From the NCBI RefSeq assembly GCF_054482595.1, contig NZ_CM137008.1: a DNA stretch of 64,000 nucleotides. One strand, written 5' to 3'. This document shows positions 57,367 through 64,000 of the stretch, piece by piece. The notes beneath the pieces were generated by a model. That model was given only the letters and a program-made list of their open reading frames with translations. It searched no databases and was not told the origin of the DNA. Every line of letters begins with the position of its first letter. Position 1 is the first letter of the stretch. A program made the position numbers and the translations under genes.

Positions 57367-60300
57367 TTACTCGCTAACCATCTTACTGAATAACTTCTCC
57401 AGATAAACGGGGCCTGTATCCTCAATAAAAAGCACATTTCTGGCTTCCAGATTTTCTTTTGAGTCAGGTACGTTTACTAAGTCAACATAACAAGTTTCAG
57501 AAACAATAAATGCACTTAATGATAAGTTATCATCCGATAATTTATGTTCAAGATTCTTAATTTCTTTATATAATCCGAACTTCGGATCATCAAGATTAAG
57601 ATTGCGAATGCCTTTTGGATCAATAAGACTTAGCCATTGTTTACCACTTTTATCATCGACTAACCACAATAAGAAATCCGGATAAAAATTACCCGCAGTA
57701 GCAAAGCCCAGGCCTTTATTTTTAGAATCCGCATTTCTTAGCAGATATAAACTTTTATCACCAATAATTTTCTGCCCTTTTGTCGAATCAACAAAAGACT
57801 GAAGATCCTGAACAAAAGTAATCTCGCTTGGCGCACCAAGTGCTGCCGGTCGCATTTTTAGCGGTATATTGGCATTTTTTTCAATCGAAAGAAGCGGGTA
57901 ATAGAGATGTTTATCAAAGGTAATAGCAACCATCCCGGATGCACTCCAGGATTTTGCTTTACCGATTTCGCCGTCGATGACCAATTGTTGTAATTGTTCC
58001 AGCCGACTGGCATAAGCCAACCCATCATCAGTTTCTTCGATCTCGAAATGGTACATTTTGATCATACCAGGATCATCTTCTTTCACCTGCGTGACTTCAT
58101 AAAACTGACCTTCATAAGCATTTTTCAAGGTGTTGTAAAAGCGATCAGTATAATCAGTCAGCAGACGAAGCATAATATCTTCCTGCTTAGCAATATCTGC
58201 ATATTGCTTAATCTCAAGCTCTGAAGCTGGAATCAAAAGGGTATACCAACTATTTCCGATCTTTGTCTTACCGGTACAAAAGTCGATCAAACGTTGTTTA
58301 TCCACACGTAAATTTGACCAGCCGCGTTGTAGTTTATAATTCTGAATGGCGAGATAAAGCCGATCAAAATCAAATGCACTAATGATTTTATAATCTAACT
58401 TCGCTTCATTGCGCACGTTAACCGGAGTATTGTCCCCTTTTCTGCTGGTATCAATCGACTCAAGTTTCGGGTATAAGTCCAGCTTAATATGCGGCTGCTT
58501 AATTTTCCCCTGAAAATCAGCAGGAACTTCATACAATTCAGGAAAATAGACACGTTTAAAGCCGAGTCTTTGATTATCTTTATAACCATCTTTAAGCTTA
58601 AGTGTTTTAAGCCTGGTTGCTGGCATATTTGGCCGAGTTTCAAAATTCAGCTCAAGGATCTCGTCACTTGGCGTAATCCCTTCATCTTCCAGGTATTGTT
58701 TAAAGGTTGCCATGTAATCGGCACGTACACCGAATACATTCAGTGTCTCTAATTTTTCCAGATGCAACCCTTTCGGACGCTCACCGGGTGTACTGCGTTT
58801 CAAAGAATAATTGCGACCTTTAAGGCGTACGCCACGACCAAATAACTGAATGATCTGTGAACCTTCTCCACGGCCCATATTGAGCAATCCCATCGTTGAG
58901 ACGCGCCAACTGCTCCAGCCTTCAGTAAATTTTCGCGAGCCGATCAAAATATGTAGTCGCGAGTCTTTGTCATTTAACGTATGAAAGAGTGACTTTGCAA
59001 AATCATCTCTCTGATAATCAAATGTCGTATCCTCTTCACACATTTTGTAAAGAGACGGTGCATCACCAATATTGATAAGGCCAAACGGTTCGGCCTCACC
59101 AACCTGTAATGCCAGTTCACCTTTACTGCCTATTAAATTCAGAACTCGCAGTCGCTGACCAGAGTGAGTGGTGTTAAACAAGCGAGAAAGAATATCTGCG
59201 TAGATATCTTCCGGAGCGTTCATTAGTGCAGTAAAGCGATTTTCAAAAATGTTACGCTCTTTGGTATCGAGGATTCGCGCTTTATTTTTAATGAGATCGT
59301 TAATCCACGCTTTTGCCTGCGTTTCGTGGTTTAAAAACCATGCTAAAAAACGCAATACTGCGTGAATGTCTGAATCTTCACCACTTACCGTATTACCGAC
59401 AAAAACCCACAGCGGTTTTTCGATATTAAATTCACTTAATTTTTCTTTATTCTTATTGAATAAATATTGTTGCTGATAAAAGCTGAGCAAACACGCGGTA
59501 AAATACTCATACCGACGCTCATCTTTTTTATCCTCTTCAGGATTAAGGTTAAGAATCAGTGATTCTTTACCATAACCATCCTCATAGAAGAATTTATAGG
59601 AGTAATCGAACAGAATCGATTTTCCATAGACCTCTCGCGTCGCCTGAATACGCGCATCTCGTTTTTCTTCGCTGGTTAATGCTATTTGCGCTAACTCTTC
59701 TTCGTTCAGTTTACCTAAGGCCGTTGTTTCAAAAAGCAGCTTTGCTTTTTTCTTCTGAATTTCTGTTTCAACTGCCTCAACATTATTGCCACCGGCTACT
59801 GCCTGGCCAAAAGTTGCTGAATATTCAAACGCAAATCCGTCACGTGTTAATTTGTCACGACGGCGCATCCAGGCACCAGCAGCACTTCCGGTGCCTTTAT
59901 GCCCTTCATCAATCAGAACCAGATTGTTGCCTTCAAATGCCTCAACGGCAACAGTTTTGTCACCCATTTCATCGGCAAGTTTATTGATATCAATAACTTC
60001 AATCGTGCCTTTGAAGGGCGCAGATTTACTCTTATCGAATAACTGGTATTGGGTAAATCCTGAGTTTTCCAGCTCATCTAAATGTTGCTTCGACAGGCGT
60101 TCATCCGGAGTAAGCAGGATGATTTTGTCGGGGTAATGGTGGGTATTACCGTTCTGGAAATAATGTAAGTATTGCAAAATATTGACATGCAATAGCAGTG
60201 TCTTACCAGAACCAGTAGCATTCCAGTATGCCAGTTTATTCAAATCATCCAGAATATATGATTTGAACTGATTAGCCCGGTCTTTTGCTGTTTTATCATT

Positions 60301-60747
60301 TTCAGCATTGTATGCTGCCAGCTCGTTATTTAGCCCATCGAGTAATTGCTGTTTACGATTGAAGTACCAGTCCAGGTAGATCTCGGTAAACAAAAGCGAC
60401 AAGTACTGAAAATATTTCATGTTCAGCACAGTGTCTTCTTTGCGATTACGGTGCTCAGTTATCTGCTGCCAGTGCTGCACGATATTGAGATCGTAACGAC
60501 GCAGTTCATCGAGATCGATAAGATCGACCTCGAATAAATAGTTACTCAGCTCATGGAAGAACAAACTTTGGCCATCCTCATGGATGCCTTCAAAGCGATC
60601 TTCACCTAACCGATTCTTCAGACCTTGCAATGTGCCATCTTTAAAAAAATGGAACATAAAGCGGTTCAAAACCAGTTGCTTATGAAAGCTCAGTTTGCTG
60701 TTTGTCTCTTTTTTAACAGCTTTACCGGTGGTCGGTTTTTTAGCCAT
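57367..60747 (-). CDS. Type III restriction Res-like subunit: SF2 helicase core with C-terminal PD-(D/E)XK nuclease motif, 1126 aa
   Basis: Motif I WNATGSGKT, motif II VLIDEGHKG, motif III SATFG, motif VI QLFGRGVRL; C-terminal YPDFLLWLVDD ... LIDPKG (PD ... DxK). Strong GGAGGAGG SD; start lies 2 nt after the Mod-like stop. Confidence 0.75.
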   Translation of the reverse strand: MAKKPTTGKAVKKETNSKLSFHKQLVLNRFMFHFFKDGTLQGLKNRLGEDRFEGIHEDGQSLFFHELSNYLFEVDLIDLDELRRYDLNIVQHWQQITEHRNRKEDTVLNMKYFQYLSLLFTEIYLDWYFNRKQQLLDGLNNELAAYNAENDKTAKDRANQFKSYILDDLNKLAYWNATGSGKTLLLHVNILQYLHYFQNGNTHHYPDKIILLTPDERLSKQHLDELENSGFTQYQLFDKSKSAPFKGTIEVIDINKLADEMGDKTVAVEAFEGNNLVLIDEGHKGTGSAAGAWMRRRDKLTRDGFAFEYSATFGQAVAGGNNVEAVETEIQKKKAKLLFETTALGKLNEEELAQIALTSEEKRDARIQATREVYGKSILFDYSYKFFYEDGYGKESLILNLNPEEDKKDERRYEYFTACLLSFYQQQYLFNKNKEKLSEFNIEKPLWVFVGNTVSGEDSDIHAVLRFLAWFLNHETQAKAWINDLIKNKARILDTKERNIFENRFTALMNAPEDIYADILSRLFNTTHSGQRLRVLNLIGSKGELALQVGEAEPFGLINIGDAPSLYKMCEEDTTFDYQRDDFAKSLFHTLNDKDSRLHILIGSRKFTEGWSSWRVSTMGLLNMGRGEGSQIIQLFGRGVRLKGRNYSLKRSTPGERPKGLHLEKLETLNVFGVRADYMATFKQYLEDEGITPSDEILELNFETRPNMPATRLKTLKLKDGYKDNQRLGFKRVYFPELYEVPADFQGKIKQPHIKLDLYPKLESIDTSRKGDNTPVNVRNEAKLDYKIISAFDFDRLYLAIQNYKLQRGWSNLRVDKQRLIDFCTGKTKIGNSWYTLLIPASELEIKQYADIAKQEDIMLRLLTDYTDRFYNTLKNAYEGQFYEVTQVKEDDPGMIKMYHFEIEETDDGLAYASRLEQLQQLVIDGEIGKAKSWSASGMVAITFDKHLYYPLLSIEKNANIPLKMRPAALGAPSEITFVQDLQSFVDSTKGQKIIGDKSLYLLRNADSKNKGLGFATAGNFYPDFLLWLVDDKSGKQWLSLIDPKGIRNLNLDDPKFGLYKEIKNLEHKLSDDNLSLSAFIVSETCYVDLVNVPDSKENLEARNVLFIEDTGPVYLEKLFSKMVSE

Positions 60748-60749
60748 TC

Positions 60750-63869: not shown

Positions 63870-63889
63870 TATTTTCTCTTTCAAATCAA

Positions 63890-64000
63890 TTAAATAACTT
63901 TCCAGCGGATGGAAAAAAGCTCGGTGATATCCGTTTTTTGCTTCATCCGCTCTTCAAGGGCACTGATGAGTTCATCCCGCTTGTCGGCGATCTCATCTTC
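63890..64000 (-). CDS. 3' end of an upstream gene (C-terminal 36 codons: ...EDEIADKRDELISALEERMKQKTDITELFSIRWKVI*); rest lies beyond the window
   Basis: Minus-strand frame open from the window edge to the TAA at 63890-63892, 20 nt upstream of the Mod-like ATG on the same strand. Translated by hand. Confidence 0.55.
   Translation of the reverse strand, partial: EDEIADKRDELISALEERMKQKTDITELFSIRWKVI

What the first reader, a model, noticed from the sequence alone, without database searches (positions are those of the whole stretch)
57367..64000. Type III-like restriction-modification operon with at least three genes and atypical architecture
On the minus strand a truncated upstream gene, a Mod-like methyltransferase and a Res-like helicase-nuclease are arranged head-to-tail with 20-nt and 2-nt gaps, which implies one operon. 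The Mod-like and Res-like proteins carry canonical Type III motifs, but both are markedly longer than classical Type III subunits, and a canonical Type III system has only mod and res. The block is AT-rich and sits in accessory DNA next to nanS beside a separate HNH endonuclease gene, which is a typical defence-island context. This is the strongest candidate in the window for an undescribed or poorly characterised defence system.
Basis: partly seen in the sequence, partly recalled or inferred. Interest (0 to 1): 0.8.

Follow-up and report, generated by a model that had tools for sequence, protein, structure and literature searches.

The report
Eco86II-type restriction system, new methylase allele
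This is a real three-gene DNA restriction-modification operon, but its family was published in 2021 (Eco86II of E. coli NCTC86); only the methylase's central part is different here, and the role of the extra SNF2 motor protein is still unknown.

Summary
On the minus strand lie the 3' end of one gene (63890-64000), a 1039-aa Mod (60750-63869) and a 1126-aa Res (57367-60747), separated by 20 nt and 2 nt, in AT-rich DNA beside nanS and an HNH gene.

Identical E. coli genomes show that the cut-off gene is a 963-aa SNF2 ATPase lying next to tRNA-Leu (leuX).

The system is not undescribed. Murray et al. 2021 (PMC8259958) characterised Eco86II of E. coli NCTC86, a Type III system that methylates GAGCC to m4C and cuts about 25 bp 3' of the site. 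[quoted passage not shown] - Its SNF2 differs from the NCTC86 protein by 5 residues.
- Its Mod has a replaced core (about aa 395-900), so its specificity is probably different and is unknown.

New here:
- The SNF2 is closest to DISARM DrmD.
- An SNF2 gene lies next to mod-res in about 50 of 56 loci that could be judged, across many phyla and in two gene orders.
- Res has no detectable sequence similarity to EcoP15I Res.
- Mod carries a family-specific 390-aa N-terminal domain.

Verdict: a new member of a known kind, of moderate interest because the SNF2's role is open.

The parts
63890..64000 (-). 3' end (last 36 codons plus stop) of a 963-aa SNF2-family ATPase gene. The rest lies beyond the window.
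   Evidence: The translation ends ...ELFSIRWKVI*, which equals the C-terminus of WP_021557482 in the 100%-identical genome XH990. Pfam finds SNF2-rel_dom plus Helicase_C. The best PADLOC match is DrmD at 659 bits. Against NCBIfam DISARM_DrmD_b it scores 667 bits, below the 950 cut-off. The ATPase motifs are conserved in 39 orthologues.
60750..63869 (-). mod: a 1039-aa beta-class amino-methyltransferase (the Type III Mod).
   Evidence: PADLOC MTase_III PDLC03646 matches over the full length at 1652 bits. Pfam N6_N4_Mtase covers aa 493-812. The best Foldseek matches of the AF2 model are Type III Mods: 6k0w, 4zcf_A/B and 7dsu.
62700..63869 (-). Mod N-terminal domain (aa 1 to about 390), specific to this family: long helices, then a beta-rich domain, then a helical bundle.
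   Evidence: It is the most conserved part of Mod across 52 orthologues. No Pfam family matches it in any member, and nothing matches it among the PDB hits, which all rest on the methyltransferase part. It is identical between the E. coli alleles.
61170..62687 (-). Replaced Mod core (aa about 395-900: catalytic motifs IV and I plus the target-recognition region). It differs from the Eco86II allele.
   Evidence: Protein identity to M.Eco86II of NCTC86 is 12-48% here and 96-100% on either side. The DNA match to NCTC86 breaks between 61347 and 62671. The DPPY motif is at 62370-62381 and FGGSGTT at 61509-61529.
57367..60747 (-). res: a 1126-aa SF2 ATPase with a C-terminal PD-(D/E)xK nuclease, identical to R.Eco86II.
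   Evidence: It carries the same protein accession, WP_001085525, in XH990 and NCTC86, and the sequences are identical. PADLOC REase_III PDLC03654 matches over the full length at 2326 bits. Residues invariant in 130 homologues are K182, D280, E281, H283, Q634, R638 and R641. The AF2 model has pLDDT 86.6.
57613..57825 (-). Nuclease catalytic core of Res (E975 ... P1023-D1024 ... D1043-P-K1045).
   Evidence: E975, P1023 and D1024 are invariant. Position 1043 is D or E. Position 1045 is K in 99 and H in 29 of 130 sequences. The model shows the alpha-beta-beta-beta-alpha-beta order expected of a PD-(D/E)xK fold.

Best explanation
This is an Eco86II-family Type III restriction-modification system made of three genes, SNF2 ATPase, Mod and Res. 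It sits at the leuX defence hotspot of E. coli and carries a Mod allele whose whole catalytic and recognition core has been swapped.

Shown for the sister allele Eco86II, which has the identical Res (PMC8259958):
- Mod alone methylates one strand of the asymmetric site GAGCC, producing m4C.
- A partially purified native preparation, in which mass spectrometry detected Mod and Res peptides but none from the extra ATPase, cuts about 25 bp 3' of the site on plasmids that carry head-to-head sites. The assay buffer contained ATP.
- The extra ATPase is needed neither for methylation nor for this in vitro cutting.

Inferred for this window:
- The same Res is directed by a different Mod core, so the enzyme probably recognises a different short asymmetric motif. 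Whether the methylated base is m4C or m6A cannot be told from the sequence.
- As in EcoP15I, a Mod dimer would bind the site and Res would use ATP to start long-range communication along the DNA. The C-terminal PD-(D/E)xK domain would cut when two enzymes at unmodified head-to-head sites meet.

Inferred, with low certainty, for the SNF2:
- It is an active double-stranded DNA translocase co-expressed with Mod and Res.
- My best guess (about 0.4) is that it helps restriction inside the cell. It could clear bound proteins or drive communication along protein-covered or single-orientation DNA.
- Less likely, it helps Mod reach all host sites (about 0.2), or it is an independent defence gene (about 0.15).
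For: - Gene layout, gaps and motifs.
- Full-length PADLOC Type III models match both proteins.
- Res is identical to the NCTC86 protein, SNF2 differs from the NCTC86 protein by 5 of 963 residues, and the Mod flanks are identical to NCTC86 while the core is replaced.
- NCTC86 has a single Type III system, with a 5' helicase-like gene. It methylates GAGCC to m4C and cuts about 25 bp 3' of the site (PMC8259958). The 5.9-kb mod clone reported there fits a mod gene of about 3.1 kb.
- Strain F9792, whose enzyme EcoF9792I (GAGCC) is listed in that paper, also carries this locus: H24.
- The Mod model matches Type III Mods best.
- Res has intact, invariant ATPase and nuclease residues.
- SNF2 motifs I, II, III and VI are conserved in 39 orthologues.
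- An SNF2 gene lies next to mod-res in about 50 of 56 loci that could be judged, from many phyla. Gaps are typically -15 to +50 nt, and two gene orders occur.
- The same cassette is found in Salmonella and on conjugative plasmids.
Against: - No experiment bears on this particular Mod allele, and a chimeric Mod could be inactive.
- Six loci with enough flanking DNA lack the SNF2, and no SNF2 peptides were found in active Eco86II fractions (PMC8259958). Its involvement in restriction is thus unproven.
Confidence: 0.85

Rival explanations
1. It is a DISARM-like system. A DrmD-type SNF2 plus a methylase form the sensing module, as in class 1 DISARM, and the Res-like protein replaces DrmABC as the effector. 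Defence would then not follow Type III rules.
For: The SNF2's best matches are DrmD models: PADLOC at 659 bits and NCBIfam DISARM_DrmD_b at 667 bits. In class 1 DISARM, drmD and drmMI sit together 5' of the effector genes, and deleting both weakens defence against one phage (preprint 10.1101/2021.12.28.474362). The SNF2-Mod linkage is ancient.
Against: No DrmA, DrmB (DUF1998) or DrmC (PLD) gene lies in or near the operon. Res matches only the Type III model. The SNF2 scores below the curated DrmD cut-off of 950, and the match stops at residue 677-729. Mod is a PF01555 beta-class enzyme and not a DrmMI-type one. Eco86II, with the identical Res, cuts about 25 bp 3' of its site like a Type III enzyme, in fractions with no detectable SNF2 peptides (PMC8259958).
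Confidence: 0.07
2. The SNF2 gene is a separate, self-sufficient gene (its own defence function, or a repair or remodelling function) that merely travels with mod-res. The restriction system proper has two genes.
For: It is not needed for methylation or for in vitro cutting, and no peptides from it were detected in active Eco86II fractions (PMC8259958). Some loci have mod-res without it (L012, L036, L051, L060, L077). Single-gene SNF2 defences exist, such as HmaA (PMC11232893).
Against: It keeps its adjacency in about 50 of 56 loci from Proteobacteria to Chloroflexi, Planctomycetes, Acidobacteria and Actinobacteria. It lies on the same strand, often overlapping mod by 15 nt, and stays attached even where the order changes to Mod-Res-SNF2. 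It has no nuclease or other effector domain.
Confidence: 0.1
3. It is a Type I or Type ISP relative (a translocating enzyme that cuts far from its site) and not a Type III system.
Against: Mod and Res are separate proteins and there is no HsdS. The nuclease is C-terminal to the motor, as in Type III and opposite to Type I and Type ISP. The methylase is beta class with Type III Mods as its best structural matches. Eco86II cuts at a fixed distance of about 25 bp (PMC8259958).
Confidence: 0.02

Closest known systems
Eco86II (E. coli NCTC86) and EcoF9792I, Type III R-M, m4C at GAGCC (Murray et al. 2021, PMC8259958)
   Same: Same chromosomal locus and gene order. Res is 100% identical, SNF2 is 99.5% identical, and Mod residues 1-390 and 900-1039 are essentially identical.
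   Different: The Mod core (about aa 395-900, covering the catalytic motifs and the recognition region) is only 12-48% identical. The GAGCC specificity and the m4C chemistry therefore cannot be carried over.
BspHIV (Acinetobacter sp. H), the second characterised Type III system with a 5' helicase-like ATPase (PMC8259958)
   Same: Three-gene layout of ATPase, mod and res, as the authors describe.
   Different: Its sequence was not compared here. About 140 bp of non-coding DNA separates the ATPase gene from mod there, against 20 nt here.
EcoP15I / EcoP1I, classical Type III R-M (PDB 4ZCF)
   Same: mod lies upstream of res. Mod is beta class with the recognition region between motifs IV and I. 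Res has the SF2 motor first and the PD-(D/E)xK nuclease last. The Mod model aligns to EcoP15I Mod (E 2e-17).
Class 1 DISARM (DrmD-DrmMI-DrmA-DrmB-DrmC)
   Same: A DrmD-like SNF2 ATPase is encoded directly 5' of a methylase that marks an asymmetric site.
   Different: There is no DrmA, DrmB or DrmC. The methylase family differs. The SNF2 is below the DrmD model cut-off and has a different C-terminal third.
Hma (HmaA SNF2 helicase, HmaB m5C methylase, HmaC ATPase; Payne et al. 2021, PMC8565338)
   Same: A three-gene set combining an SNF2 helicase and a methylase.
   Different: Hma's methylase is predicted to be of the m5C type (PMC8565338), and its third protein is an ATPase, not an ATPase-nuclease Res. 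Here the SNF2 matches HmaA only weakly (194 bits), and Mod and Res match no Hma model.

Membership tests
Type III restriction-modification (classical definition) | Separate, co-oriented mod and res genes with mod upstream | tested here: met
   Mod is at 60750-63869 and Res at 57367-60747, both on the minus strand, with a 2-nt gap.
Type III restriction-modification (classical definition) | Mod is a beta-class amino-methyltransferase (motif IV, then the recognition region, then motif I) related to known Mods | tested here: met
   DPPY at 497-500 lies before FGGSGTT at 781-787. PF01555 is found in 52 of 52 family members. Sequence hits to 7dsu, 6k0w and 4zcf_A. The top Foldseek hits are Type III Mods.
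Type III restriction-modification (classical definition) | Res has an N-terminal SF2 ATPase and a C-terminal PD-(D/E)xK nuclease | tested here: met
   Walker A, DEGH and motif VI residues are invariant, as are E975 and P1023-D1024; position 1043 is D or E and position 1045 is K or H. The AF2 topology fits.
Type III restriction-modification (classical definition) | Res is homologous to characterised Res subunits such as EcoP15I Res | tested here: inconclusive
Type III restriction-modification (classical definition) | Methylates one strand of an asymmetric site, and cuts about 25 bp 3' of it with ATP and two head-to-head sites | not testable with these tools
   One-strand m4C methylation of GAGCC and cutting about 25 bp 3' of the site were shown for Eco86II, which has the identical Res but another Mod core (PMC8259958). 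Those digests used an ATP-containing buffer and plasmids with head-to-head sites; whether ATP or the head-to-head arrangement is required was not tested. Nothing is known for this allele.
Type III restriction-modification (classical definition) | Two-gene system | tested here: not met
   A third, conserved SNF2 gene lies 20 nt upstream of mod.
Eco86II/BspHIV group: Type III with a 5' helicase-like ATPase (Murray et al. 2021) | An extra SF2 ATPase gene without a nuclease motif immediately 5' of mod | tested here: met
   The 963-aa protein has SNF2-rel_dom and Helicase_C domains and no nuclease domain.
Eco86II/BspHIV group: Type III with a 5' helicase-like ATPase (Murray et al. 2021) | Orthology to the characterised Eco86II proteins | tested here: met
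   Res is identical and SNF2 differs at 5 of 963 residues. The locus is the same in NCTC86.
Eco86II/BspHIV group: Type III with a 5' helicase-like ATPase (Murray et al. 2021) | GAGCC specificity with m4C methylation | tested here: inconclusive
   The Mod core is replaced (12-48% identity over aa 400-900). Neither the motif nor the methylated base can be read from the sequence.
DISARM class 1 | Core genes drmA (helicase), drmB (DUF1998) and drmC (PLD) | tested here: not met
   None is present in the 39-kb annotated region. Res matches only REase_III in PADLOC.
DISARM class 1 | DrmD SNF2 helicase reaching the curated model cut-off | tested here: not met
   NF038318 scores 667 bits against a 950 cut-off, and NF038317 scores 290 against 610.
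Hma | HmaB m5C methylase and HmaC ATPase partners | tested here: not met
   Mod and Res match no Hma model. The system is defined in PMC8565338.

The most novel reading that the evidence does not exclude
The DrmD-like SNF2 may be an essential working part of this Type III family inside cells. It might let the enzyme restrict DNA that classical Type III enzymes miss (sites all in one orientation, or protein-coated or modified phage DNA). Alternatively, it might guarantee complete self-methylation, much as the eukaryotic SNF2 remodellers DDM1 and HELLS open DNA to methyltransferases. If so, an SNF2-plus-methylase pair would be an ancient shared module of both DISARM and this Type III branch.
Probability: 0.3. 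Interest if true: 0.6.

Novelty: new member of a known kind. Interest (0 to 1): 0.35.

Why it matters
The family is widespread:
- about 3% of complete E. coli genomes carry it;
- its Res cluster is recorded on thousands of Salmonella contigs;
- it is on conjugative IncF plasmids of Klebsiella and E. coli;
- it occurs in many bacterial phyla.

Even so, one of its three conserved genes has no known role. The authors of the 2021 description left that question open. It can be tested directly in E. coli with this locus, because the Res is identical to a biochemically active enzyme.

The link between this SNF2 and DISARM's DrmD suggests that the two systems share a motor-plus-methylase unit.

The Mod core swap shows how specificity is exchanged in this family. 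A block of about 1.3-1.5 kb is replaced between conserved arms, while Res and SNF2 stay unchanged.

Tried and rejected
- NCBIfam names neither Mod nor Res.
- Pfam sees only the methylase core and the Res N-lobe.
- PDB sequence searches with Res, as a single protein and as a family profile, found nothing.
- Literature searches by protein accession found nothing.
- Several keyword searches on SNF2 plus Type III found only unrelated papers. The wording 'type III RM' then found Murray et al. 2021.
- I considered Hma and rejected it: its methylase is of a different type and its third protein is an ATPase with no nuclease.
- I considered DISARM and rejected it as a membership claim: there is no DrmABC.
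- I tested whether the convergent 100-aa gene (57018-57320) is a fourth component and rejected it. It travels with the cassette in E. coli, Salmonella, Shewanella, Arsukibacterium and Pseudomonas. However, in Aeromonas and Marinomonas it flanks a different defence operon.
- I tried to predict the specificity of this Mod allele from close homologues of its core. The nearest are unnamed metagenome proteins, and no organism with a known motif appeared.
- The loci without an SNF2 were checked for a substitute helicase. L036 and L077 have large unknown or weakly helicase-like genes upstream, which settles nothing.
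Full report
**1. Observation**

The minus strand of 57367-64000 holds three co-oriented reading frames:
- Res-like, 57367-60747, 1126 aa.
- Mod-like, 60750-63869, 1039 aa from the ATG used by RefSeq.
- The last 36 codons of an upstream gene, whose stop codon is at 63890-63892.

The gaps are 2 nt and 20 nt. GC content is 0.33-0.42. On the other side lie a convergent 100-aa ORF, an HNH gene, and nanS, nanM and nanC.

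**2. The missing gene and the setting**

The stretch 56900-64000 is 100% identical to E. coli XH990 and 16 other complete genomes. In XH990 the truncated gene is a 963-aa 'SNF2-related protein'. About 390 bp beyond its start lies tRNA-Leu. This is the leuX-anchored defence island, called hotspot 37 in the E. coli literature (review PMC12707154).

The SNF2 protein has SNF2-rel_dom and Helicase_C domains and intact motifs: GLGKT, DEAH, TATPLQN and QRIGRCHRYGQ. These motifs are conserved in 39 orthologues. Its closest models are DISARM DrmD: PADLOC at 659 bits, and NCBIfam DISARM_DrmD_b at 667 bits, below the 950 cut-off. The match ends at about residue 680-730. The C-terminal third is family-specific and ends in a long predicted helical stretch.

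**3. Mod**

- PADLOC has a full-length Type III methylase model for it (1652 bits).
- Pfam sees only N6_N4_Mtase over aa 493-812, in all 52 orthologues.
- The motif order is DPPY, then a variable region, then FGGSGTT. That is beta class, as in Type III Mods.
- The sequence matches solved Type III Mods (Mbo45V, an H. pylori Mod, EcoP15I Mod) over aa 452-815.
- The AF2 model (pLDDT 79) has those same three as its best Foldseek matches (E about 1e-17).
- The first 390 residues (helices, a beta-rich domain, a helical bundle) are the best-conserved part of the protein across phyla. They match no Pfam family and no solved structure among the hits.

**4. Res**

- PADLOC has a full-length Type III endonuclease model (2326 bits).
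- The family is large: 784 representatives at 50% clustering score E < 1e-30, and nearly all are 1020-1130 aa. The length is therefore normal for the family.
- Residues invariant in 130 homologues: K182 (Walker A), D280-E281-x-H283, Q634, R638, R641, E975 and P1023-D1024. Position 1043 is D or E. Position 1045 is K in 99 sequences and H in 29.
- The AF2 model is confident (pLDDT 86.6, pTM 0.70). Its C-terminal strand and helix order fits a PD-(D/E)xK fold.
- Neither the protein nor a 24-sequence family profile finds EcoP15I Res or any other solved chain by sequence.

Res therefore has the Type III architecture but is a very distant relative, if any, of the textbook Res.

**5. Is the third gene a real partner?**

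I fetched 80 loci encoding Res homologues from one genome per species. I then located Mod and SNF2 homologues in them.

- Of about 56 loci with enough flanking DNA to judge, about 50 have an SNF2 orthologue next to mod-res. In 43 it is full length, and in 7 it is cut by a contig end.
- These orthologues are 45-81% identical to the E. coli protein, including the C-terminal domain.
- They come from Proteobacteria, Chlorobi, Chloroflexi, Planctomycetes, Acidobacteria, Actinobacteria, Nitrospirae, Spirochaetes and others.
- The usual order is SNF2-Mod-Res, with gaps of -15 to +50 nt. In Pasteurellaceae, Neisseria, Moraxella and Cardiobacterium the order is Mod-Res-SNF2, with gaps of -10 to +5 nt.
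- Six loci with enough flank lack the SNF2: L012, L036, L051, L060, L077, and L059, which keeps a remnant.
- Salmonella carries the same cassette. So do conjugative IncF plasmids of Klebsiella and E. coli, where a small HTH gene overlaps the SNF2 start.

The three-gene unit is ancient and real.

**6. It is already described**

Murray et al. 2021 (PLoS One 16:e0253267, PMC8259958) characterised six Type III systems that make m4C. Their 'third group' is Eco86II of E. coli NCTC86 and BspHIV of Acinetobacter sp. H. [quoted passage not shown] The gene is found next to Type III genes in more than 500 genomes.

Their results for Eco86II:
- M.Eco86II alone methylates the fourth base of GAGCC to m4C.
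- Partially purified native Eco86II cut about 25 bp 3' of the site on plasmids with head-to-head sites.
- Mass spectrometry found Mod and Res in that preparation, but no peptide from the extra ATPase.

NCTC86 has only one Type III system according to that paper. NCTC86 carries this very locus (one search hit H19). Comparing the window with NCTC86 (for the shared accession):
- Res has the same accession, WP_001085525, and an identical sequence.
- SNF2 differs at 5 of 963 residues.
- The Mod ends are 96-100% identical.

Strain F9792 (EcoF9792I, GAGCC, in their Table 4) also carries this locus (one search hit H24). Their 5.9-kb mod clone fits a 3.1-kb mod gene in a vector of about 2.7 kb; the vector size is from my own knowledge.

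**7. What differs in this window**

Mod residues about 395-900, which cover both catalytic motifs and the recognition region, are only 12-48% identical to M.Eco86II. The DNA match to NCTC86 breaks between 61347 and 62671.

This allele is the rarer one in E. coli. It is in 17-18 of the roughly 150-165 complete genomes that carry the cassette. Overall it is closest to the Mod of Arsukibacterium (73% identity).

Because the whole core is replaced, neither the motif nor the methylated base (m4C or m6A) can be inferred. A search with the core found no homologue from an organism with a known motif.

**8. Mechanism**

Shown for the sister allele: one-strand methylation of an asymmetric site by Mod alone, and site-directed cutting about 25 bp downstream in ATP-containing reactions, by fractions in which no SNF2 peptides were detected.

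Inferred here: the same Res is steered by a different Mod core to a different motif. The EcoP15I-style model (a Mod dimer at the site, an ATP-triggered Res, and cutting when two enzymes at head-to-head unmodified sites meet) is an analogy. It is consistent with the Eco86II data.

The SNF2 is an intact, strongly conserved motor that is co-transcribed and often translationally coupled with mod. My best guess is a helper role in restriction inside cells (about 0.4). Alternatives are help with complete self-methylation (about 0.2) or an independent function (about 0.15). None of these was tested.

**9. Rivals**

- DISARM membership fails: there is no DrmA, DrmB or DrmC, the methylase family is different, and the SNF2 is below the model cut-off.
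- Hma fails.
- A Type I or Type ISP reading fails on gene organisation, domain order and methylase class.
- The convergent 100-aa gene is not a component. In Aeromonas and Marinomonas it flanks a different defence operon.

**10. Verdict**

This is a correct and careful observation of a real three-gene operon. The family, including its extra ATPase, was published in 2021, and the Res here is identical to the characterised enzyme.

What remains new is modest:
- an uncharacterised specificity allele;
- the kinship of the SNF2 to DrmD;
- the breadth of the linkage and the two gene orders;
- the distance of this Res from EcoP15I Res.

The open role of the SNF2 is a fair, directly testable question.

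Noticed in passing
window 55833-56705 (+): This is a phosphorothioated-DNA-binding HNH restriction endonuclease of the SBD-HNH, Type IV-like kind (NCBIfam NF045808, 433 bits against a cut-off of 180). RefSeq records of the same locus also annotate a short HNH pseudogene remnant just upstream of it. It is a second, independent restriction gene in the same island.
   Followed up: partly
window 57018-57320 (+): This 100-aa ORF is convergent with res and matches nothing in Pfam, NCBIfam, PADLOC or PHROGs. It is conserved (50-70% identity) in Aeromonas, Vibrio, Shewanella, Pseudoalteromonas and Marinomonas. In Aeromonas and Marinomonas it sits at the end of a different defence operon (DUF1156 methylase, DUF499 ATPase, and in Aeromonas an SNF2/NOV_C helicase). 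It looks like a boundary gene of a cargo slot in an integrative island.
   Followed up: yes
L007 1977-3029; L056 8518-9600; L075 3128-4243; L045 2680-3795; L080 8074-9303: In many related loci, one or two unrelated genes lie between mod and res, or just upstream of mod. They include a DUF1016/YhcG nuclease, an AIPR/MzaE-like protein, Fic/SoFic and a MAD3-like AAA ATPase. I recall similar passenger genes nested in Type I operons.
   Followed up: partly
L037, L039, L041-L044, L047, L074: In Pasteurellaceae, Neisseria, Kingella, Moraxella and Cardiobacterium the SNF2 gene lies after res (order Mod-Res-SNF2). The junctions overlap or nearly touch. The partnership therefore survives a change of gene order.
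   Followed up: partly
L091 2611-12363 (plasmid pEC316_2, NZ_CP018955.1): 215 plasmid records encode a 63%-identical Res, and at least the top hits also have a methylase gene under or beside the match. Most are conjugative IncF plasmids of E. coli, Klebsiella and Salmonella. In the one plasmid examined in detail (pEC316_2), SNF2, Mod and Res follow an 81-aa HTH gene that overlaps the SNF2 start. The HTH gene may be a controller for establishment in new hosts. NCTC86 and E24377A keep only a broken HTH gene about 550 bp upstream of the SNF2.
   Followed up: partly
Thermus phage phiLo MH673673.1 18036-20477: This is the only phage record with a homologue of this Res (35% identity over 77% of the protein). 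It is annotated as a putative Type III R subunit.
   Followed up: no
L036 826-4236; L077 3116-6103: Two of the loci that lack the SNF2 have another large gene (1136 and 995 aa) on the same strand upstream of mod. The L077 gene lies directly upstream; in L036 two smaller genes lie between it and mod. The L036 gene has weak helicase-like hits, and the L077 gene matches nothing in PADLOC. They could be substitutes for the SNF2.
   Followed up: partly
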